Assembly: GCA_947259885.1 (NCBI GenBank)
Contig: CAMYNW010000021.1
Location: forward strand, 8,836 to 72,835
Source: an uncultured Gammaproteobacteria bacterium
Lineage (GTDB): Bacteria > Pseudomonadota > Gammaproteobacteria > Arenicellales > Poriferihabitantaceae
Direction of reading: 5' to 3'
DNA: 64,000 nucleotides
Shown here one piece after another: positions 14,514-43,573 of this stretch. The notes beneath the pieces are model-generated. The model did no database searches. It saw only the letters and a program-made list of their open reading frames with translations, and was not told where the DNA came from. A program made the translations under genes and the position numbers. Numbering within the stretch: position 1 is the stretch's first letter; every line of letters begins with the position of its first letter.

Positions 14514-15449
14514 TTATATGGTTTCGATAAGACCAATCATTTTTTGCCGCGTCGGTTCATCCGGCAGACGTCCGAAACCTGCTCCCATATTGTCGACCAT
14601 ATGCTTTAACTTTGAGGTGGCCGGGATAATGCAGGTCACAGCGGGGTGAGCCGCGATAAACTTCAGAAAAAACTGCCCCCAGCTGGCGCAATCGATTTCC
14701 GACGCCCATGCAGGTAACGGCTTGCCGCGCACCTTGCGAAACAGGCTGCCGCGCTGATAGGGCCGATTGATCAGCGTCGCGATACCGCGTTCCTGCGCGA
14801 TCGGCAACAGGCGTTGTTCCGCGGTCCGATTGAGGATGTTGTAGCTGAACTGCACGAAATCCAGCGGCTGGTTTTGCAGTAAGGTTTCGAGTTCGTCGTG
14901 GTAACGCCCATGAGAAGTGGTAATACCGATGTAGCGGATTTTACCCTGCGCCTTCCAGTCGATTAGGGTATCGAGATGTGTCTGCCAGTCGAGCAGGTTG
15001 TGGATCTGCATCAGGTCTATTCGATCGACGCCGAGACGTTGCATAGATTGCTTCATCTGGCGGATGCCCTGGTCCTTGCCGTTGGTCCAGACCTTGGTCG
15101 CGGTGAAGAGCTCCTGTTTGCCGTCTATTTTTTCCAGCAGTGCTCCAGTAACCGATTCTGCGTTGCCGTACATCGGCGAAGAATCGATCAGCTGACCGCC
15201 CCTGTCGAAAAAAGCCTGCATGACCTCGACTAATGGCGAACTAGCGGCGCCTCCGATGTCGACGTCGAAGGTGCGGGAGGTCCCGAGGCCGATCACCGAG
15301 ATTGGCTCTCCGCTTGACGGAATCATTTTCTTGATGGCGACTGGTTCCATTGCGACGGTATAAGCCGGTGCAAACGTGCAAGCCAGCGACGCTGCACAAG
15401 TGGATTTAAGGAATTTACGGCGGGTAAAATCATTTTCGAATTTGCTCAT
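14514..15449 (-). CDS. Aldo/keto reductase with a twin-arginine (Tat) signal peptide
   Basis: AKR-typical body (GLGTSRTF, DSSPMYGNAE, ATKVW, IDLMQIHN, RYIGITT). The N-terminus MSKFENDFTRRKFLKSTCAASLACTFAPAYTVA matches the Tat consensus S/T-R-R-x-F-L-K. I prefer the ATG at 15449 (1 nt after the upstream gene's stop) over the track's start at 15506. Confidence 0.8.
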   Translation of the reverse strand: MSKFENDFTRRKFLKSTCAASLACTFAPAYTVAMEPVAIKKMIPSSGEPISVIGLGTSRTFDVDIGGAASSPLVEVMQAFFDRGGQLIDSSPMYGNAESVTGALLEKIDGKQELFTATKVWTNGKDQGIRQMKQSMQRLGVDRIDLMQIHNLLDWQTHLDTLIDWKAQGKIRYIGITTSHGRYHDELETLLQNQPLDFVQFSYNILNRTAEQRLLPIAQERGIATLINRPYQRGSLFRKVRGKPLPAWASEIDCASWGQFFLKFIAAHPAVTCIIPATSKLKHMVDNMGAGFGRLPDEPTRQKMIGLIETI

Positions 15450-15450
15450 T

Positions 15451-16764
15451 TCAAATCTCCGGTTGCGTTCGACTGGTTGCTTCGAGGCTGTTGTTACTTT
15501 GCTCATGATAGTTGCCGAGAAAGACTGCGACCAGCGTCCACAACAGCGCTATTGCCGCGGCGATAATCGCAATCGCGCCAAGGCCAAGACCTATGCCCTG
15601 GGCGAGTCCGGTATAGGTCCAGCTGGCGAGGACATCACCGCCCCGGTAGACAACGATATCAATGACGGGTTTGGTTTTAAACCGGGTTTCGCGCTCCACC
15701 CCGGTGAACAGCATTTCCCTCCCGGGTCGTGTAATGGCGTAGTTGCCGGCGCGGCGGATGATTTGCAGGGCGACCATGATTGCGAGCCCTGGGGCGATCG
15801 CAACGGCTGTCCAACCGAGCACCATGATCGCGGGAACCAGCGCGAGGGTCACCGCCAGCCCAAGTTTAGTCGCTAGACGGCTTGTCGCAAACAGCGCGGT
15901 CGCGATAGCCAGCGAATTGACGACCAGGTCCATCATTCCCCAGTATTGGGAACGGGTGGCACGATCGTAGTCGACCATAACGTTTTTCAGCTCGAAGTAA
16001 ACAAAGGTGCTCATCATCGTGTATAGCAGAATGAACAGACCGATAGCCAGCAGGAAACGGTGACCGAGAAAATCGGTAAAGCCTGCGAAAAAATCTCCCC
16101 CGATGGACTGCGTGGAACCTGATGGCGAATCGGGTTTTTCCTCGGTCGCGCCCGCCAATCTCGTCCTGTCGAGAGAAAAAATCAGTGGAATGATCAGTAA
16201 TAGCATCAACGCGGCGACCAGCAGCAGGTTATAGACGCCAAGGATTTCCCCAAGCAGCACCGGGAGGAAGGGCCCGGCGACCGCGCCGATGCTCGCGCCG
16301 GCGCCGAACACGCCGAACAGGCGCCTGGATTGCGATCTCGAATAAATATCGGACATGAAACTCCAGAACACCGAAATATGAAACATGGCGAAAAAACTGA
16401 CCCACACGTAAAACGACTTGTCGATCAGCGCGGTATCGTCAACCCAGTGTGTTGCCGCGAAAAACAGCAGGAAGGAAGCTGCGAAAAAAAGGTATACCCC
16501 GGGAACCAGCTTTTTTAATTCGATTCTGGACACGACGTATCCGTAAGCCAGCACAGCGCCGGCGCTGATAAAAAAATTGAGCGTCCACAACCAGCTCAGT
16601 TCGGCATCGCTCCAGTCGCTGGACATGGCGTCGCGCACCGGCCTTAAAACGTAGTACGCCGCCATCAGGATGAAAACGAACAGGAAGGACATTGCCGCCG
16701 CGGGAATTTCATGCGGCTCGATTTTGATCAGCTTATTGACGTAACGGAGAAATACCGGTGGCAT
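15451..16764 (-). CDS. MFS-type 12-TM carrier resembling NTP/NDP-exchange (TLC/NTT-like) transporters
   Basis: 437 aa and highly hydrophobic. The N-terminal segment FLFVFILMAAYYVLRPVRDAMSS resembles the signature start of the ATP:ADP antiporter-like MFS family. The family assignment is from memory only. Confidence 0.55.
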   Translation of the reverse strand: MPPVFLRYVNKLIKIEPHEIPAAAMSFLFVFILMAAYYVLRPVRDAMSSDWSDAELSWLWTLNFFISAGAVLAYGYVVSRIELKKLVPGVYLFFAASFLLFFAATHWVDDTALIDKSFYVWVSFFAMFHISVFWSFMSDIYSRSQSRRLFGVFGAGASIGAVAGPFLPVLLGEILGVYNLLLVAALMLLLIIPLIFSLDRTRLAGATEEKPDSPSGSTQSIGGDFFAGFTDFLGHRFLLAIGLFILLYTMMSTFVYFELKNVMVDYDRATRSQYWGMMDLVVNSLAIATALFATSRLATKLGLAVTLALVPAIMVLGWTAVAIAPGLAIMVALQIIRRAGNYAITRPGREMLFTGVERETRFKTKPVIDIVVYRGGDVLASWTYTGLAQGIGLGLGAIAIIAAAIALLWTLVAVFLGNYHEQSNNSLEATSRTQPEI

Positions 16765-38506: not shown

Positions 38507-38917
38507 CAGAAAATATACAAATTGCTACTTTTTCCGCTAGCGCTGGACCAGGGTCATGGCCACAGGTCTATGGAAATTGCCAGACGGCTCAGAGCGTAAG
38601 GCGGCAAGATCATTGCCGTACATGTAATCGATCAGGTTCCCAGTTTCGCGAATTATTACCTGTCGTCCGAAAATGAAAAGAAAATCCATGAATCAGCCAA
38701 AAAGGCTATTGAGGAACGAATTGGTGCGGAGAAGGATGCTGAAGTGGTAGTGCTCACCGGGCACCCGGGACGGACGATTACCGATTATGCGGAAAAAATT
38801 GGTGCAGACTGCATTATTGCTGGATCTCATAAACCGGAAATGAAGGATTTTTTACTCGAATGAACCGCGGCGCGCATTGTGCGTCACGCACCCTGCTCGG
38901 TAAACGTCATACACTAA
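38507..38917 (+). pseudogene. Universal stress protein (UspA family) pseudogene
   Basis: My translation: KIYKLLLFPLALDQGHGHRSMEIARRLRA-TAA(38597)-GGKIIAVHVIDQVP...VVVLTGHPGRTITDYAEKIGADCIIAGSHKPEMKDFLLE-TGA(38861)-TAARIVRHAPCSVNVIH-stop. The Usp fold pattern is intact, but there is no start codon and there are two in-frame stops. Confidence 0.65.
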
Positions 38918-38951
38918 GAACGGCACTCTGTTCGATCTGGTTGCATATTGA

Positions 38952-38972
38952 GAATAGGGAATAGGGAATAGG
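38952..38972 (+). repeat. (GAATAGG)x3 tandem heptamer
   Basis: Read directly. It lies in the junk DNA between the Usp pseudogene and the IS relic. Confidence 0.8.
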
Positions 38973-39055
38973 GGACTGAGAATCCCTCCGTGTTGGCACA
39001 GCGCGGCTACCGGCCCAATTGTGTCGTAGTCACCACAGCAATCCCTTTGGAACAC

Positions 39056-39250
39056 GTTCTTGGTATTGCCCTGCAGCCATTGTTTGCCCGATTCCAGGAA
39101 CTCTCTGCTCCAGCGGTAATAGACGTTTTGATTCAGGCCTTTTCGGTGGCACAATTCAGCCGCTATTTCCTCGCCGCGAAATTCTTCCAAAACAATACTG
39201 ATCTTACCTTCCGCTGAATGCTTTCGACGGGATTTACGATGGATGGCTTT
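39056..39250 (-). mobile_element. Relic of an IS3-family transposase orfA (HTH part only)
   Basis: The minus-strand translation KSRRKHSAEGKISIVLEEFRGEEIAAELCHRKGLNQNVYYRWSREFLESGKQWLQGNTKN fits the IS3-type OrfA N-terminus (..RR.YS.E.K..IVLE.LRGE..IAELCRREGI....YY.WSKEFLEAGK..L.GDT). There is no start codon (upstream TAA), no orfB, and I saw no inverted repeats. Confidence 0.55.
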
Positions 39251-39426
39251 GACGAATTACGCAGAACTGGAATCGCGCGTATTAAGACTCCGATGGATAA
39301 TAATAAATTAACAAATGTCTCTCGCAATATTTAACGCACTTTGGCCTCAACCGTTCTGACGGGATACACTTAGAGTACCTATATATTTGTGTGATCAGCG
39401 TACAAAGCATCCAATTACCCTTACAG

Positions 39427-40743
39427 ATGTTGAAAAGTTCTTTGATCCTTCTTCAGTGTTTACTAATTTTGCTTGCTTGTTTAGGTGCGCACTCACACGC
39501 GCAGCAAGTGTCGACTGTGGAGGATGAGAGTGCTCCGATCGATGTTGAAACCCGGGAGCTGAGTGCCGAAGAAGATCCACTGTTGAGCTCAAAGATTCAG
39601 CGTGATGCCTCGCTTGAAGAAGGGGAAGGGGAAGGGGAAGGGGAAGGGGAAGGGGAAGGGGAAGGGGAAGGGGAAGGGGAAGGGGAAGATCCAGCGCCCG
39701 CCTTCGGTTTCGATTTATACGGCAGCTTCCGTGTCCGCTATCGTGAGCAGGGTAGCGATGCGGCATGGGAAGACGGCGGTTCGCGGTTAGGCATCGAAAT
39801 CGAGAATCGATTCTCAGAAAAATCTTTTCTGTTTGCTCGCTATGAAAGTGGTTTAAACGTACTGGATGCACTAGACCGGGATAAAAGTGCGGAGGAATTC
39901 AAAGATACCATTTTTACCCGGCTTGGCTATGTCGGTCTGGAAACCCCATCCATTAATATCATCGCAGGTAAGAACTGGTCCACATATTATGAGGTGGGGG
40001 CATTCACCGATCGTTTTATGGGTGCCGGAGGGGATGCAAGCGGGGTCTTCAATGCCGAAACCGATGGTGGACCAACCGGTACGGGCCGTGCGGATAGCGC
40101 CCTTCAAACAAAACTATCACTAGATTTTCTGTCGCACAGAGTGTTCAAGCCGTTTAATCTGAATGTTCAGATGCAGCATGGTAACGCTATCCCGTTTGGC
40201 GGTGATTCGCATTACGGTACCGCAATCGGAATCAGCTCGGTTATGACCACTGAAAGCAACTTCACTCTTGGCGTTGCCTATAACCATGCAGAAGTCGATC
40301 TCGACGATGATTCTTCGCTGCGGGACGTTGGCTTATCGGGTGATGCCCGTTCGCTTCTTATTGGTACGCGGGCATTTGGTGAGCGCTGGTATGCAGGCAT
40401 AGTGCTGGCCAAAATGGAAAATCACGAGACGACAGATGAGGGCGTCTACTTCGATGGCTTGGGCAGCGAATTCTATGGGCAGTATCAGTTGTCTGACCGG
40501 GTTTGGTTTGTTGGGGGATACAATATATTGGAGCCTGATTCCCGCCAGGCCCAGGCCGGAGACTACAGAATCAGATATCTAATGACAGGCTTTAGGTATT
40601 CCTTTGACGATTTCAGGCGCATGATTTTCGCAAATGTTCGTATCAACGACAGCCTTGATGCCGATGGTACCCAGGCCGCAAACATCTACACGATAGGAAT
40701 AAGGTGGGACCTGACATCGAAAGGATGGCACCCGTCAAATTAA
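39427..40743 (+). CDS. Outer-membrane porin (general/anion porin-like beta-barrel) with an N-terminal (Glu-Gly)n tract
   Basis: Signal peptide MLKSSLILLQCLLILLACLGAHSHA-QQ (I prefer the ATG at 39427 to the GTG at 39391). Alternating beta-strand pattern: FGFDLYGSFRVRYRE, GSRLGIEIENRF, LFARYESG, FTRLGYVGLE, and C-terminal YTIGIRWDL. Confidence 0.75.
   Translation: MLKSSLILLQCLLILLACLGAHSHAQQVSTVEDESAPIDVETRELSAEEDPLLSSKIQRDASLEEGEGEGEGEGEGEGEGEGEGEGEDPAPAFGFDLYGSFRVRYREQGSDAAWEDGGSRLGIEIENRFSEKSFLFARYESGLNVLDALDRDKSAEEFKDTIFTRLGYVGLETPSINIIAGKNWSTYYEVGAFTDRFMGAGGDASGVFNAETDGGPTGTGRADSALQTKLSLDFLSHRVFKPFNLNVQMQHGNAIPFGGDSHYGTAIGISSVMTTESNFTLGVAYNHAEVDLDDDSSLRDVGLSGDARSLLIGTRAFGERWYAGIVLAKMENHETTDEGVYFDGLGSEFYGQYQLSDRVWFVGGYNILEPDSRQAQAGDYRIRYLMTGFRYSFDDFRRMIFANVRINDSLDADGTQAANIYTIGIRWDLTSKGWHPSN
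39619..39684 (+). repeat. Perfect hexanucleotide microsatellite (GAAGGG)x11 inside the porin gene
   Basis: Counted directly: 11 uninterrupted units plus a partial GAAG. It encodes (EG)11, in frame. Confidence 0.95.
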
Positions 40744-41545
40744 CGAATTCGGCGACTTGTTGTTCTTTCGATTTTTTATTTGTGGGACCGGGGTATCAAG
40801 GACACAGAGAACCTGTATAAGTGATGTATTCCTGTCGTATGCCGTTGGCAAAATTGGATATTAGAGGAATGTGTTTATATGAAACTAATCAATCGAACCT
40901 GTGCAGTCGGTCTAATCCCAGGCCTGTAGAATATAGAGTCGGTATTAACCCTTGCGTTTGTAAGTAGATCTGACCGCTTTTTATCTTGGAATAGTGTTTA
41001 AAAATCTTCACTCATCCATTAACTTTTAGTTTACAAGACCTGATTCCATGCCTTATCAATTCTGCGAGAGCTTGTTGAGTTGTTTTAAAGCATTGAAAGC
41101 ACTAGACGAAGGATAGCGTCAGAGAGAAATCGAGACAGTTATTGATGGGTCAATCGATGCCTATGAATGATGTTTTGTGATCTTTTAATATCATCGTAAC
41201 GACCGGATCAGCATCCGTTACACCTGCTGTTTTAGTTGTCTGGAGCCTAAATTAAGTAGTACCGCTGAAACAGACCACCAGATCGACTTCTCGCGGTTTT
41301 AACCAGGCTTCTAGCCTAAAAAGCAAACCTTTATCAGATACAACCGACCGCTTATCTAAAATATTTGACAACGATATTCTGAGTAGATGTAATACTTTTA
41401 CATAGTGCTTGTCTAAGCCATTGTTTGGACTACGCTGCTCCCATGTTTTACCCATCATCGGTGCGATGTCATTATTCAGAGTAACGTCAGGTTGCGAATA
41501 ATGTGATTAAACAGTGGCTTCACTGAATCATACTTGAGAAGTCGC

Positions 41546-42445
41546 ATGACTGATAAGAATTCGATCAAGGGCCGTCGCAGGTTACTGCTATCAATTGCCG
41601 CTGGCAGTGGCGCTGTGATGACAAGTAAAATGCTGCCTGAAATTTGGGCTGAGCCAGTTGTCAACGCCGTGATACTTCCCGTCCATGCACAGGTAAGTCC
41701 GGGCCCTATATCCAGCTGCGGTCGCACGTTCAGTTATACCGATCCCACCGCTAATCCAATCTCAGTGCAAGTGCCGGCCTGTGCGTCTTCTGCATCGCTG
41801 GCGCTGATTGGTGGCGCTGCAGGCGGCGGCGGCGGTGGTGGTGGCGGTGAGACAGGCGGCGCTCTTGACACCGGTGGTAATGGGGGCCAGGGCGCGGCAG
41901 GCGCAATTAACAATACCGTTGTCACGGTCAATCCAGGAGAAATGTTGTCCGTTTATGTAGGCGGCGGCGGTGGCGGTGGAGTAGGCGGTCAAGGTTGCTT
42001 CAGTGGCGGGTGTCCCGGCACAGGAGGGCCCGGGGGCGCCGGAGGAAATGGAAATCCAACTGGCCCCAGTGGAAGTCCAGGCGTGACTGATGCCTCCCCT
42101 GGGGCCGGCGCGGGTGGTTCATCAGCGGGCGGCGGTGGCGGTGGGGGTGCAGGAGGGACATCCAGTGTTTCCGGTTCGTTTGGCGCACAGGCTGCTGCCG
42201 GTGGCGCTGGCGGTGGTGGTGGCGGTGCAAAGGATGGGTCCGATCCGGTCACGGCCGGTGACGGGCAAGATGGCATCGCAGGCGGAGCGGGAGGTGATGG
42301 TGGCAATGACGGGGACGGGGGTGCTGGCGGAGCCGGTGATCAATCCACCGGGGGCGGTGGCGCCGGCGGTACTGGAGGGACCGCTACGGATGGAGCAACA
42401 GGCATTTCTGGAAACAATGGAAGCGTGCAGATTACCTTTAGCTAA
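41546..42445 (+). CDS. Secreted glycine-rich protein (poly-Gly tracts; resembles the bacterial 'glycine-rich domain' proteins) with a Tat-like leader
   Basis: I prefer the ATG at 41546 (MTDKNSIKGRRRLLLSIAAGSGAV...LPVHAQ). The mature part reads FSYTDP..ISVQVPACASSASLALIGGAAGGGGGGGGG...VTVNPGEMLSVYVGGGGGGG, followed by Gly/Ala/Asp low complexity. Antisense ORFs here are shadows. Confidence 0.75.
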   Translation: MTDKNSIKGRRRLLLSIAAGSGAVMTSKMLPEIWAEPVVNAVILPVHAQVSPGPISSCGRTFSYTDPTANPISVQVPACASSASLALIGGAAGGGGGGGGGETGGALDTGGNGGQGAAGAINNTVVTVNPGEMLSVYVGGGGGGGVGGQGCFSGGCPGTGGPGGAGGNGNPTGPSGSPGVTDASPGAGAGGSSAGGGGGGGAGGTSSVSGSFGAQAAAGGAGGGGGGAKDGSDPVTAGDGQDGIAGGAGGDGGNDGDGGAGGAGDQSTGGGGAGGTGGTATDGATGISGNNGSVQITFS

Positions 42446-42613
42446 AGACTGATAGGTTTAGGTAGGATAAGCCTGTGTTCTTCTATCGATTCCTTCAGTA
42501 AGTTCTGCTATCTGCCAAAACTGTAATTGATCGGATGTTTGAAATTAATGTTTACAGCCAGAACTACTGACTCTTAATTCAACGAGCTTTCAACAGATTT
42601 CGGGAACTACATT

Positions 42614-43216
42614 TTAGATCGTAGCTGGGAAGGTTAAGACAAAGGTCAAATTATTCATGGCACCTGCGTCGCAATCAACCACGCCTTGATTTGTCGCGGT
42701 TACCGGCACATTGAGACCGGGCCCAGCGGCACTGATATCTGCTTGGGTGATTGTATAAATCTCAGTGGCGGTGTCCTGCTGTTGCGGAAGGGGCGTTCCC
42801 GTGTTGCCGACTAAGGGTGTAAGAATTGGGCCACCGTTAAAGGCGATCTGCCAGGCTTCCATATTCGGCCCTTCATTACCAGTAAGATCGCCGTTAGCCG
42901 TCACCGTTAGTGTGCCATCGCCAGTTGGCGTAAATCCGCCGGTGGCCCAGTCGAACAGGAAAGGTGCGGGGTCAGGAACCGGGAGGCCAGTGTTTAGCAC
43001 TGCACAAAGCTCACCCGACGACAAGGTCTGGGAAAAAGTCGTACGTGTGGGCCCGGTGCGCGCGCTGGTCTGAGCGTGAGCAGGAAGTAGCACACTATCA
43101 ATCGCGGGTTTAATCCAACTTTCTGGCATTACTTTGCCGGTCGCGACTGCGCCACCACTCACTACAATGGATCTTAATAACTTACGGCGACTTTCTATAT
43201 GACTTTTATCAAACAT
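42614..43216 (-). CDS. Secreted protein of unknown function sharing the same ~50-aa Tat-like leader
   Basis: 200 aa: MFDKSHIESRRKLLRSIVVSGGAVATGKVMPESWIKPAIDSVLLPAHAQ, then a Thr/Gly/Pro/Asn-rich, probably beta-rich domain. Convergent with the glycine-rich gene. Confidence 0.7.
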   Translation of the reverse strand: MFDKSHIESRRKLLRSIVVSGGAVATGKVMPESWIKPAIDSVLLPAHAQTSARTGPTRTTFSQTLSSGELCAVLNTGLPVPDPAPFLFDWATGGFTPTGDGTLTVTANGDLTGNEGPNMEAWQIAFNGGPILTPLVGNTGTPLPQQQDTATEIYTITQADISAAGPGLNVPVTATNQGVVDCDAGAMNNLTFVLTFPATI

Positions 43217-43573
43217 TAGCTTCTCTCATATCGATTGAGTGAGGATTATAAATGCTCACACGGTTACATCATATAGTGGAGTAGACACGTTATTCTAATT
43301 TGGTGGTTGTTGTATTCAATGAATCCCACCTATTGAGCATGCCTAGCTGGAATGCATTTTTGTTAAGCATTACACAGTACTCGAAAGAAACTTTCAAATA
43401 TATTGGATCAGCGACCTATTTTCTCCGACGAACGCATGATTTTCTTATTGAGTGTGCCCTTATACCGGAGATGAATAGGCGACAATCTATTTATCAGCTA
43501 CACACCAAAAATGGATTGAATTGCGAATTAGACAGCCGTAAATTTTGATAAATCACTGTTCGTTACGCATTCA

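What the first reader, a model, noticed from the sequence alone, without database searches (positions are those of the whole stretch)
41546..43216. Convergent gene pair sharing a ~50-aa Tat-like leader with a conserved extension (…RRxLLxSI…GAV…K..PE.W..P…V.LPxHAQ) on unrelated mature domains, one a poly-glycine protein
Seen: the two N-termini align from the initiator Met. They read MTDKNSIKGRRRLLLSIAAGSGAVMTSKMLPEIWAEPVVNAVILPVHAQVS and MFDKSHIESRRKLLRSIVVSGGAVATGKVMPESWIKPAIDSVLLPAHAQTS, with roughly half the positions identical. The downstream domains are unrelated. One has G7-G9 runs and the F.Y...VP...i.i.GA.GG / v.pG..l.v.VGGGG pattern of bacterial glycine-rich-domain proteins. The other is a T/G/P/N-rich 150-aa domain. 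The hydrophobic core of the leader is weak for a Tat or Sec signal, and the conserved PE.W..P..V.LP.HAQ segment is not part of the canonical Tat consensus. Inference: this is a dedicated sorting or processing tag, for example recognised by a specific peptidase, chaperone or export route. It defines a small family of co-secreted proteins. The pair is bracketed by AT-rich non-coding DNA (40744-41545, 43217-43573) and sits next to an ABC-2 exporter, consistent with an accessory cassette.
Basis: partly seen in the sequence, partly recalled or inferred. Interest (0 to 1): 0.65.

Follow-up and report, generated by a model that had tools for sequence, protein, structure and literature searches.

The report
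Extended Tat export leader, large family
Two neighbouring genes for unrelated small secreted proteins share a 48-residue export leader: an ordinary twin-arginine (Tat) signal plus an almost invariant 20-residue extension that marks thousands of otherwise unannotated proteins in marine Arenicellales-type bacteria and fits no curated family.

Summary
ORF A (41546-42445, +) and ORF B (42614-43216, -) share 26 of their first 51 residues (E 2e-16), and nothing after that.

The leader is not private to this pair. An exhaustive HMMER search found 2,641 protein clusters, and nearly all of the best 150 match only the leader, at their own N-terminus. The consensus is MTDKKSSESRRKLLKSIAAGSGAIVAGKSLPESWSRPVVDSVMLPAHA|QTS.

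- The first half is a textbook Tat signal: SRRKLLK, a Gly/Ala-rich h-region, then Lys.
- The second half, W-x-[KR]-P-V-V-D-S-V-x-L-P-A-H-A, is family-specific and ends in an AxA signal-peptidase site.
- Ordinary Tat substrates of the same genomes lack the second half.
- Codon comparison shows purifying selection on the peptide, not gene conversion.

Hosts are almost all Arenicellales or unclassified Gammaproteobacteria MAGs, with several copies per genome, often clustered. Mature parts are small and acidic, with even Cys counts, and about 95% have no Pfam domain.

A carries an ALK/LTK-type glycine-rich domain. B is a jelly-roll β-sandwich.

About a fifth of the longer related loci encode soluble hydroxylases, glycosyltransferases or nucleotidyltransferases next to Pro/Thr-rich family members.

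The ABC-2 exporter link is not supported.

Verdict: a new, uncurated variant of the Tat signal. What the extension does is inferred, not shown.

The parts
41546..42445 (+). Gene A: 299-aa precursor, leader plus glycine-rich mature domain (4 Cys)
   Evidence: ORF list. Leader HMM 90 bits. Metatranscriptome contigs 100% identical over 41483-41994.
41546..41626 (+). A, residues 1-27: Tat signal proper. n-region MTDKNSIKG, twin arginine R10-R11 (41573-41578), h-region LLLSIAAGSGAVMTS.
   Evidence: Matches S/T-RR-x-[FL]-L-K. RR is invariant in 131/131 family leaders. Sub-threshold hits to TIGR02811/TIGR01409 Tat models across the family. Hydropathy is typical of Tat.
41627..41689 (+). A, residues 28-48: family-specific extension KMLPEIWAEPVVNAVILPVHA, ending in V-H-A (AxA-type site); predicted cleavage before Q49
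   Evidence: Invariant P31, W34, P37, P45, H47, A48. Position -3 is A/V/S/T only. Absent from ordinary Tat substrates.
41690..42442 (+). A mature region (residues 49-299): ALK/LTK-type / Gly_rich_2-type glycine-rich domain
   Evidence: hhalign against an alignment of 10 leader+Gly-rich relatives: probability 97.7%, E 2.4e-12. Some of those relatives pass Pfam PF12810 (8e-24) or PF21722. No direct Pfam hit for A. AF2 single-sequence model unusable, pLDDT 35.
42446..42613 (.). 168-bp spacer between the convergent stop codons
   Evidence: Sequence. No terminator-like site found there.
42614..43216 (-). Gene B: 200-aa precursor, leader plus jelly-roll β-sandwich domain with 2 conserved Cys
   Evidence: ORF list. 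11 full-length homologues. Orthologue in syntenic locus L021 at 85% identity.
43136..43216 (-). B, residues 1-27: Tat signal proper (MFDKSHIES-RR-KLLRSIVVSGGAVATG; RR = 43184-43189)
43073..43135 (-). B, residues 28-48: extension KVMPESWIKPAIDSVLLPAHA; predicted cleavage before Q49
   Evidence: The motif is conserved in all 11 B homologues, and three of them lack seven residues of the alignment just before the conserved Trp.
42617..43072 (-). B mature region (residues 49-200): β-sandwich, C71 and C182 nearly invariant
   Evidence: AF2 with a 12-sequence alignment: pTM 0.64, 8 strands, many blocks with pLDDT above 90, leader residues 1-38 below 50. Foldseek returns jelly-roll folds; best is Ena3A 8pdz_A, E 2.4e-4, with low TM.

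Best explanation
Both genes encode small proteins exported across the inner membrane by the Tat pathway. Export is directed by a composite 48-residue presequence.

Residues 1-27 are a canonical Tat signal: an S/G-R-R-K/R-L-L motif followed by a Gly/Ala-rich h-region. Residue 28 is a Lys, as in the 'Sec-avoidance' c-regions of known Tat signals.

Residues 28-48 are a family-specific extension, [LM]-P-E-x-W-x-[KR]-P-[VI]-[VI]-[DN]-[SA]-V-x-L-P-[AV]-H-A. It looks like a second, short h/c unit and ends in a textbook type I signal peptidase site: Pro at -4, A/V/S/T at -3, Ala at -1. Cleavage there would release mature proteins that mostly begin with Gln or Glu.

The extension is kept by purifying selection on the peptide itself. 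That implies a specific partner reads it before or during cleavage. Candidates are a signal peptidase paralogue, the Tat receptor, or a cytoplasmic factor.

The cargo is a very diverse set of small, acidic proteins with paired cysteines, often Thr/Pro-rich, from Arenicellales-type Gammaproteobacteria. A is an ALK/LTK-type glycine-rich-domain member and B is a jelly-roll member.

In some related loci, soluble cytoplasmic hydroxylases and glycosyltransferases are encoded beside Pro/Thr-rich family members. This suggests one reason for using Tat: the cargo is modified or folded before export.

Shown here: the motif, its distribution, the selection on it, its absence from other Tat substrates, and the nature of the cargo. 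Inferred: Tat dependence, the cleavage position, and the existence of a dedicated reader.
For: - Leader shared by the pair, E 2e-16.
- Family size: 2,641 clusters at E<=1e-3. Of the 167 proteins returned by the two searches, 163 carry the leader motif.
- RR is invariant in 131/131 distinct leaders, and the RR-to-HA spacing is 39 residues in 152/163. Position 46 (-3) is A113/V11/S4/T3, A48 is invariant, and position +1 is Q97/E15.
- SRRxFLK plus n-, h- and c-regions is the accepted definition of a Tat signal (PMC13323110).
- 130 of 148 members give sub-threshold hits to TIGR02811 (a Tat target) over residues 1-26, and 48 to TIGR01409. NCBI names some members 'twin-arginine translocation signal domain-containing protein'.
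- h-region hydropathy is 1.35-1.57, like TorA and SufI.
- Other Tat substrates in the window and in related genomes have 22-28-residue RR-to-AxA signals without the extension.
- Within single genomes, paralogous leaders keep 30-37 of 42 residues, but only 25-55% of the identical residues share a codon. The next 126 nt are about 25% identical.
- Mature parts: 155/163 have at least 2 Cys, 142 have an even number, and D+E is 10.8% against K+R 3.2%. This fits an extracytoplasmic fate.
- A signal peptidase I gene lies 0.7 kb from leader genes in L052, L056, L060 and L147.
- PTM-type enzymes without signal peptides or TM segments lie 9-264 bp from Pro/Thr-rich members.
- Gene A is present in sediment metatranscriptome contigs.
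Against: - No experiment and no dedicated predictor (TatP, SignalP) could be run.
- Neither curated Tat model reaches its cut-off on any member.
- The AxA site lies 21 residues after the h-region. From general knowledge, that is longer than signal peptidase I usually tolerates, so cleavage could be elsewhere or by another enzyme.
- Proteins that need disulfides are more typical Sec cargo than Tat cargo.
- No partner gene recurs in most loci, and there is none in the window.
- The signal peptidase neighbour comes from one set of closely related loci, so it is effectively a single observation.
- AF2 gives the leader no structure.
Confidence: 0.6

Rival explanations
1. The extension is not removed with the signal. 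Signal peptidase cuts right after the h-region (around A26/G27). Residues about 28-51 then stay as a conserved N-terminal tag on every mature protein, directing a second step such as passage of the outer membrane, surface attachment or assembly. The 22-residue N-terminal targeting segment of curli CsgA works this way.
For: Small residues at the end of the h-region (I-V-A-G, A-S-Q, V-S) would satisfy the -3/-1 rule. Invariant W34, P37 and H47 are not needed by signal peptidase I. The AxA lies unusually far from the h-region. B's fold resembles pilus-like Ena subunits that use an N-terminal connector (weak).
Against: Conservation stops abruptly three residues after A48, as at a presequence/mature boundary. 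Position -3 varies exactly as signal peptidase I allows, and +1 is Q/E. No outer-membrane or secretion-system gene recurs nearby.
Confidence: 0.15
2. The extension is mainly a cytoplasmic docking peptide, like a RiPP leader. It recruits tailoring enzymes (prolyl or JmjC hydroxylases, glycosyltransferases, HPr-kinase-like and nucleotidyl transferases, sulfotransferases) or a chaperone to the cargo before Tat export. This can coexist with cleavage at AHA|Q.
For: - 26 of 156 related loci (15 of 78 loci of at least 8 kb) carry such enzymes.
- Several enzyme genes are 9-264 bp from the leader gene; the O-fucosyltransferase genes are on the same strand.
- The enzymes lack signal peptides and TM segments.
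- The adjacent leader proteins are poly-Thr or Pro/Thr/Ser-rich, the expected substrates.
- HPr-kinase homologues, nucleotidyltransferases and sulfotransferases are known peptide-tailoring enzymes in lasso-peptide clusters (PMC8498205).
- The family shows a conserved leader with hypervariable cargo, as RiPP families do.
Against: - About 80% of loci, including the window, have no such enzyme nearby.
- The enzyme sets differ between loci, yet the motif is the same.
- No RRE/PqqD-like gene was seen.
- Mature domains are mostly folded proteins of about 140 aa, not peptides.
- No control for the background frequency of these enzyme genes was run.
Confidence: 0.2
3. It is a Sec-type signal or an uncleaved N-terminal membrane anchor, and the RR pair is incidental.
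For: Cys-paired small proteins are typical Sec cargo. The curated Tat models are below cut-off.
Against: RR is invariant in 131/131 leaders within an SRRKLLK motif. The h-region is short, Gly/Ser-rich and of Tat-like hydropathy, and is followed by Lys. A 12-15-residue Gly-rich segment is a poor stable anchor.
Confidence: 0.05
4. The similarity reflects only a recent duplication or gene conversion of a 5' segment and has no function of its own.
For: The two genes are adjacent.
Against: Only 8 of 21 identical non-Met/Trp residues share a codon, and nucleotide identity is 60%. The same peptide is found on at least 69 unrelated mature-domain clusters across many genomes.
Confidence: 0.02

Closest known systems
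Canonical bacterial Tat signal peptides (S/T-R-R-x-F-L-K; TIGR01409, PF10518)
   Same: Residues 1-28 have the twin-arginine motif, a Gly/Ala-rich h-region of Tat-like hydropathy and a basic residue after it. An AxA site follows (PMC13323110).
   Different: There are 21 residues between the h-region and AxA, against about 5-10 in ordinary Tat signals of the same genomes. These residues are almost invariant across thousands of unrelated cargos. The n-region (MTDKKSSES) is also conserved.
Family-specific conserved signal-peptide variants: ESPR of autotransporters/TPS proteins, YSIRK-G/S and KxYKxGKxW signals of Gram-positive surface proteins (from general knowledge)
   Same: A conserved sequence element is added to a general export signal, shared by many unrelated passenger domains in a lineage, and is thought to tune the route, site or timing of secretion.
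   Different: Those are Sec signals, and the conserved element lies in or before the n/h-region. Here the signal is Tat-type and the element lies after the h-region.
RiPP precursor families with a conserved long leader and hypervariable core (Nif11/NHLP-type, prochlorosins; from general knowledge)
   Same: Near-identical leaders on hypervariable cargo, many paralogues per genome, gene clusters, and tailoring enzymes beside some members.
   Different: There is no double-glycine site and no recurrent C39 transporter; only L005 has one. The cargo is mostly folded domains of 100-250 aa. The leader carries a Tat motif.
Dedicated signal peptidase / translocase arrangements: SipW with TasA/TapA, and the long PhoD Tat signal with TatAd/Cd in Bacillus subtilis (from general knowledge)
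   Same: A special presequence is served by a dedicated paralogue of a general enzyme. A Peptidase_S26 gene sits 0.7 kb from leader genes in L052, L056, L060 and L147.
   Different: No S26 or tat gene is near leader genes in the other 150-odd loci or in the window.
ALK/LTK glycine-rich domain (PF12810) and Gly_rich_2 (PF21722), the domain class of phage tail-fibre-like glycine-rich proteins
   Same: A's mature region has the VP...GG(G)n ... V.PGe.L.V.VGG core and a G.V.I.F/W C-terminus. hhalign gives 97.7% against relatives that pass these Pfam models. There is a weak hit to phage 'tail wing brush gp33', 9d93.
   Different: A itself gets no Pfam hit, and only 72 columns align with confidence. 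Here the domain is fused to a Tat-type leader rather than a phage or receptor context.
Jelly-roll subunits such as Ena3A endospore appendages (8pdz)
   Same: B's predicted mature fold is an 8-stranded β-sandwich with two conserved Cys.
   Different: TM-scores are only 0.28/0.42 and identity is 10%. Viral capsid and lectin jelly rolls score about the same, so this is a shared fold class, not shown homology.

Membership tests
Tat signal peptide | Consecutive arginines within an S/T-R-R-x-F-L-K-like motif near the N-terminus | tested here: met
   A has G-RR-R-L-L-L and B has S-RR-K-L-L-R. The family has S-RR-K-L-L-K with RR in 131/131.
Tat signal peptide | Moderately hydrophobic h-region of 12-20 residues, less hydrophobic than in Sec signals | tested here: met
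   KD mean of residues 13-27 is 1.57 (A), 1.35 (B) and 1.42 (consensus), against TorA 1.46, SufI 1.66 and OmpA 2.37.
Tat signal peptide | Short polar c-region carrying the AxA signal peptidase site | tested here: inconclusive
   AxA is present (A/V-H-A, -3/-1 rule obeyed). But it lies 21 residues after the h-region, against 22-28 residues from RR to AxA in ordinary Tat substrates of the same genomes.
Tat signal peptide | Score above the curated cut-off of TIGR01409 / PF10518 | tested here: not met
   No hit for A or B at E<=1. Across the family there are only sub-threshold hits: 48/148 to TIGR01409 and 130/148 to TIGR02811. No PF10518 hit.
Tat signal peptide | Export depends on TatABC and on the RR pair | not testable with these tools
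   Needs genetics or a reporter assay.
RiPP-type precursor (leader + core) | Short core peptide and adjacent leader-dependent modifying enzymes and leader protease/exporter | tested here: not met
   For A and B the mature parts are 251 and 152 aa, and no such genes lie within 10 kb. Some distant members (L052, L056, L067, L071) come closer: mature parts of 34-47 aa beside tailoring enzymes.
ESPR / YSIRK-type extended Sec signals | Conserved element before or within the n/h-region of a Sec signal | tested here: not met
   The element lies after the h-region and the signal is of RR type.
ALK_LTK_GRD / Gly_rich_2 (gene A mature domain) | Match to PF12810 or PF21722 above the gathering score | tested here: not met
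   0 Pfam families for A at E<=1.
ALK_LTK_GRD / Gly_rich_2 (gene A mature domain) | Profile-level homology to proteins that do pass those models | tested here: met
   hhalign of A against alignment A6: probability 97.7%, E 2.4e-12 over 72 columns. Within A6, L002 passes PF12810 (8.2e-24) and L091 and L051 pass PF21722.
ALK_LTK_GRD / Gly_rich_2 (gene A mature domain) | Polyglycine-II helix lattice in the structure | tested here: inconclusive
   The single-sequence AF2 model has pLDDT 35.

The most novel reading that the evidence does not exclude
The invariant W-x-[KR]-P-V-V-D-S-V-x-L-P-A-H-A segment is a new sorting or processing signal read by a dedicated machine. It would define a previously unrecognised export branch in Arenicellales-type bacteria. 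In that branch, small proteins are folded, hydroxylated and/or glycosylated by soluble cytoplasmic enzymes, carried out by Tat, and then released by motif-specific cleavage. The second, internal copy of the motif would be a pro-peptide cleavage site.
Probability: 0.2. Interest if true: 0.85.

Novelty: new variant of a known kind. Interest (0 to 1): 0.65.

Why it matters
- **A rare kind of Tat signal.** Tat signals are normally conserved only around the RR motif. An almost invariant 20-residue addition shared by thousands of unrelated cargos implies an extra, unknown recognition step in export or processing.
- **A handle on unannotated proteins.** About 95% of the family's mature domains have no Pfam match. 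The leader gives a single handle on the secretome of a widespread but barely cultured marine sediment and sponge-associated order.
- **A possible bacterial glycoprotein route.** The leader is linked to soluble prolyl-hydroxylase, Hyp-glycosyltransferase and O-fucosyltransferase genes beside extensin-like Pro/Thr-rich members. This points to cytoplasmic modification followed by export.
- **Practical use.** A profile of the leader would improve annotation, and the leader is a candidate tool for exporting folded or modified proteins.

Tried and rejected
- **Word-indexed search with the two-leader alignment:** no candidates. It needed the 20-leader alignment, and even then returned mostly short or truncated entries.
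- **Exact-sequence look-up of B and the ABC-2 permease:** not on record.
- **An apparent 'C39 peptidase ABC exporter' neighbour in 10 loci:** an artefact of single-linkage clustering of all ABC ATPases. Only L005 has a C39 domain. Rejected.
- **ABC-2 exporter as partner:** found only in the orthologous locus L021. Rejected.
- **tatA, tatC or S26 genes near leader genes:** none, except S26 in one group of related loci.
- **Gene conversion or recent duplication:** rejected by the codon test.
- **Phage origin:** no hit in viral contigs or PHROGs.
- **AF2 of A without an alignment:** failed, pLDDT 35.
- **PDB sequence searches:** nothing for B, and only a high-bias weak hit for A.
- **Promoter and terminator scans around the pair:** not above shuffles.
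- **Literature searches:** nothing for the motif string, for Arenicellales with Tat, or for Tat export of glycosylated proteins.
- **Very short family members (37-90 aa):** mostly truncated or frameshifted entries, not convincing RiPP-like peptides.
Full report
**1. The observation**

ORF A (41546-42445, +; 299 aa from the ATG) and ORF B (42614-43216, -; 200 aa) are convergent, with 168 bp between them. BLASTP aligns their first 51 residues without gaps: 26 identical, 36 positive, E 2e-16. Nothing else in the two proteins is significantly similar. tblastn of both leaders against the whole 64-kb window finds only these two copies. The flanks 40744-41545 and 43217-43573 have GC 0.37-0.40 against about 0.50 nearby. 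Their small ORFs have no Pfam match. Neither protein matches any Pfam, NCBIfam or PHROG model at E<=1, apart from one sub-threshold hit (DUF7507, 12 bits against a cut-off of 27) in B's mature region.

**2. The leader marks a very large family**

A full-length search with B returned 11 full-length homologues. It also returned six proteins that share only the first ~50 residues and have unrelated mature parts.

An exhaustive HMMER search of 1.84 billion representatives used a profile of B plus A's leader.
- It found 2,641 clusters at E<=1e-3 and 475 at E<=1e-10.
- Nearly all of the best 150 match only profile positions 1 to about 55, at their own N-terminus.
- Of the 167 proteins in hand, 163 carry the motif. 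Their lengths are 64-345 aa, median 188.

The 131 distinct standard-length leaders give this consensus: MTDKKSSESRRKLLKSIAAGSGAIVAGKSLPESWSRPVVDSVMLPAHAQTS.
- R10, R11, P31, W34, P37, P45, H47 and A48 are invariant.
- Position 46 is A113/V11/S4/T3.
- Position 49 is Q97/E15.
- In distant members the N-terminal half drifts and the 'GK.LPE' piece can be missing. The segment W-x-[KR]-P-[VI]-[VI]-[DN]-S-V-x-L-P-A-H-A-Q persists.

**3. Who has it**

A scan of one genome per species gave 116 confirmed hits.
- About a third of the loci are labelled Arenicellales or Arenicella. These include the isolate Arenicella sp. 4NH20-0111 and several closed MAG chromosomes.
- Most of the rest are unclassified Gammaproteobacteria.
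- There are a few Candidatus Poriferihabitaceae, Pseudomonadales and 'Desulfobulbaceae' MAGs.
- Viral contigs gave none.
- Metagenome contigs gave 100 more hits. The sequencing runs that hold the window's region are labelled sediment or salt-marsh metagenomes.

A leader HMM finds 200 leader ORFs in 157 loci. They are often clustered: 8 in 10 kb in L055, and 5 each in L037 and L039.

The window is syntenic with L021 (MAG Ww423). Flanking genes are 92-97% identical in protein and B's orthologue is 85% identical. L021 ends before A's position.

NCBI calls members 'twin-arginine translocation signal domain-containing protein' or 'hypothetical protein'. No paper contains the motif string.

**4. What the leader is**

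*First half.* It fits the accepted definition of a Tat signal: an SRRxFLK motif with n-, h- and c-regions (PMC13323110).
- The motif is S-R-R-K-L-L-K.
- The h-region is 12-15 residues and Gly/Ala/Ser-rich. Its hydropathy of 1.35-1.57 equals that of TorA and SufI and is below that of OmpA.
- A Lys follows at position 28 in 124 of 131 leaders.
- 130 of 148 members give sub-threshold hits to the Tat-target model TIGR02811 over residues 1-26, and 48 to TIGR01409.

*Second half.* It is not a general feature of Tat signals in these organisms. A Tat substrate in the window (14514-15506, -) and a Rieske protein, a molybdoenzyme and a binding protein in related loci all have ordinary signals. In those, AxA follows RR by 22-28 residues, without the W...PVVDSV.LPAHA segment.

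The last residues, L-P-A-H-A|Q, form a textbook type I signal peptidase site. Sequence conservation ends three residues later. I therefore place cleavage after A48. This is an inference.

The frequent Gln/Glu at +1 would allow pyroglutamate formation. This parallels the 'Q-rule' described for Bacteroidetes signal peptidase substrates (from my own knowledge).

**5. Selection, not conversion**

Within single MAGs, paralogous leaders keep 30-37 of 42 residues. Only 25-55% of the identical residues use the same codon, and the next 126 nt are about 25% identical. For A against B, 8 of 21 identical residues share a codon. The peptide itself is under purifying selection.

**6. A second, internal copy of the motif**

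In 36 of 163 members a related element, D-x-S-[LM]-F-A-x-x-x-D-x-L-V-P-x-A-x-A, ends about 39 residues after the first AHA. Shuffled sequences give 1.6 on average, with a maximum of 6. The parts downstream of it fall into 21 BLAST clusters, so this element is also portable.

It looks like a pro-peptide boundary. It suggests that 'hydrophobic stretch-P-x-A-x-A' can be read away from the membrane-embedded h-region. Neither A nor B has it.

**7. The cargo**

- Mature regions have a median length of 140 aa. They are rich in Thr, Gly and Ser, and acidic: D+E 10.8% against K+R 3.2%.
- 155 of 163 have at least two Cys, and 142 have an even number. This is as expected for disulfide-bonded extracytoplasmic proteins.
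- They fall into at least 69 unrelated clusters.
- Only 7 of 148 have any Pfam domain: Peptidase_S74 four times, Lcl_C, Big_9 and Hint.

*Gene A.* At least 11 other loci carry leader+glycine-rich proteins of about 300 aa.
- Some pass Pfam ALK_LTK_GRD (8e-24) or Gly_rich_2.
- A aligns to their profile with 97.7% probability, E 2.4e-12.
- A weak, high-bias PDB hit is a phage 'tail wing brush' protein.
- AF2 without an alignment failed.

*Gene B.*
- AF2 with 12 sequences gives an 8-stranded β-sandwich (pTM 0.64) with a disordered leader.
- Foldseek finds only jelly-roll folds. Ena3A is best, at low TM.
- C71 and C182 are nearly invariant.

*Expression.* Gene A's 5' half is present at 100% identity in contigs of two sediment metatranscriptome runs. 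B is not seen there.

**8. Neighbours**

No gene recurs in most loci. The window's neighbours are metabolic genes: GntR regulator, dehydratase, histidinol dehydrogenase, porin-like protein, ABC-2 transporter, aminotransferase and amidase. The ABC-2 transporter recurs only in the orthologous L021.

Three enzyme sets recur close to leader genes elsewhere.
- **(i)** NTP_transf_5, an HPr-kinase-like/GT2 fusion and sometimes a sulfotransferase (L037, L039, L052, L056, L060, L147, L149). Four of these loci (L052, L056, L060, L147) also carry a Peptidase_S26 signal peptidase I gene, and at least L052 a CAP-family gene.
- **(ii)** An O-fucosyltransferase 25-264 bp downstream on the same strand, together with a 1,170-aa HPAT / GlcNAc-transferase / 2OG-Fe(II)-oxygenase protein and another GlcNAc transferase (L026, L047, L067, L071, L136).
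- **(iii)** A JmjC hydroxylase 9-34 bp away (L016, L023, L131, L134).

The enzymes have no signal peptide or TM segment. The leader proteins beside sets (i) and (ii) are poly-Thr or Pro/Thr/Ser-rich, for example GGSPSPTPSVSPAPTPPPTDVPPPTPQPSPSPTPVTTPSTTPSTTGA. HPr-kinase homologues, nucleotidyltransferases and sulfotransferases are known tailoring enzymes of lasso peptides (PMC8498205).

Overall, 26 of 156 loci (15 of 78 loci of at least 8 kb) have such an enzyme nearby. The window has none.

This suggests that part of the family is modified in the cytoplasm before export, which would explain the use of Tat. Two caveats apply. Many of these loci are orthologous to one another, and I ran no background control.

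**9. Conclusion**

The pair in the window are two members, one glycine-rich-domain and one jelly-roll, of a very large, uncurated family. The family is defined by a composite presequence: a canonical Tat signal plus an invariant 20-residue extension ending in an AxA site.

The most likely mechanism is Tat export followed by cleavage after A48, with the extension read by a specific partner (confidence about 0.6). Tat dependence, the cleavage site and the partner are all inferred.

The main rivals are:
- a retained N-terminal sorting tag (0.15);
- a RiPP-like docking peptide for cytoplasmic tailoring enzymes (0.2, compatible with the main model);
- a Sec signal or membrane anchor (0.05);
- mere duplication (0.02).

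I rate it a new variant of a known kind, interest 0.65.

Noticed in passing
L067:9965-15100, L071:4219-9542, L026:6396-11961, L047:2503-7166, L136: A conserved cassette. A leader protein whose mature part is almost pure Pro/Thr/Ser repeats (extensin- or mucin-like) is followed on the same strand by an O-fucosyltransferase. Beside it lie a 1,170-aa protein combining HPAT (hydroxyproline O-arabinosyltransferase-like), GlcNAc-transferase PF11397 and a 2OG-Fe(II) oxygenase, and a further PF11397 enzyme. All these enzymes lack signal peptides. It looks like a bacterial hydroxyproline/Thr O-glycosylation system.
   Followed up: partly
L052:5973-12459, L056:1-5844, L060:1-4683, L147: In 'Desulfobulbaceae' MAGs, two or three tandem leader genes encode poly-Thr peptides (e.g. 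NAQGPATDTTTTTTTTTTTTTTPTPTTTANSNER). They sit between an NTP_transf_5 gene plus an HPr-kinase-like/GT2 fusion and a signal peptidase I (Peptidase_S26) paralogue; in L052 the next gene after the peptidase encodes a CAP-family protein.
   Followed up: partly
family members P0016, P0018, P0030-P0165 (36 of 163): A second internal motif, D.S[LM]FA...D.LVP.A.A, ends about 39 residues after the predicted cleavage site. It is far above shuffle expectation and is followed by diverse downstream domains. It may be a pro-peptide cleavage site.
   Followed up: partly
window 39391-40743 (+): A 450-aa ORF with a signal-peptide-like N-terminus, an (EG)13 repeat and weak porin similarity (Porin_1 E 0.037; PhoE model E 2e-4, far below cut-off).
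   Followed up: no
window 38852-39190 (-): A short ORF with a weak, sub-threshold match to the transposase HTH_Tnp_1 domain (E 0.005). It may be an IS remnant, 2.3 kb from gene A.
   Followed up: partly
window 41148-41398: A metatranscriptome contig (run X7) 100% identical to the 'non-coding' AT-rich region upstream of gene A, separate from the contig that covers the gene start (41483-41733). It may be a long 5' UTR, a small RNA, or the antisense ORF 41252-41458.
   Followed up: no
window 41811-42315 (Gly-rich part of gene A): Metagenome and metatranscriptome contigs show joints that skip 280-355 nt, and many loose ends, inside the poly-Gly coding repeats. This is probably assembly collapse or length variation of the glycine-rich region between strains.
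   Followed up: no
P0022 (3,655 aa): A giant protein with 23 stretches matching residues 95-158 of B (the TLTVTANGD..GNEGPN.EAW.I segment). Its N-terminus looks hydrophobic and lacks the family's RR leader motif. B's domain therefore also exists as a repeat module outside this leader family.
   Followed up: no
L041:4942-10300, L044, L059, L155, L156 (Arenicella): In genus Arenicella, a 108-aa Cys-rich leader protein lies 39-86 bp downstream of a 1,200-1,650-aa protein with 11 DUF7933 repeats and thrombospondin type 3 repeats. The arrangement is conserved in five loci, one of them from the isolate Arenicella sp. 4NH20-0111.
   Followed up: partly
L013, L037, L039, L046, L011, L107, L127: A GMC oxidoreductase gene lies 34-661 bp from leader genes in seven loci. 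In four of them (L013, L037, L039, L046) it comes with a gluconate 2-dehydrogenase subunit 3-like protein carrying a Tat-type N-terminus. It is unclear whether this is synteny or a functional link.
   Followed up: no
window 14514-15506 (-): An ordinary Tat-signal protein (TRRKFLKSTCAASLACTFAPAYTVA|ME) in the same window. It served as an internal control lacking the extension.
   Followed up: yes
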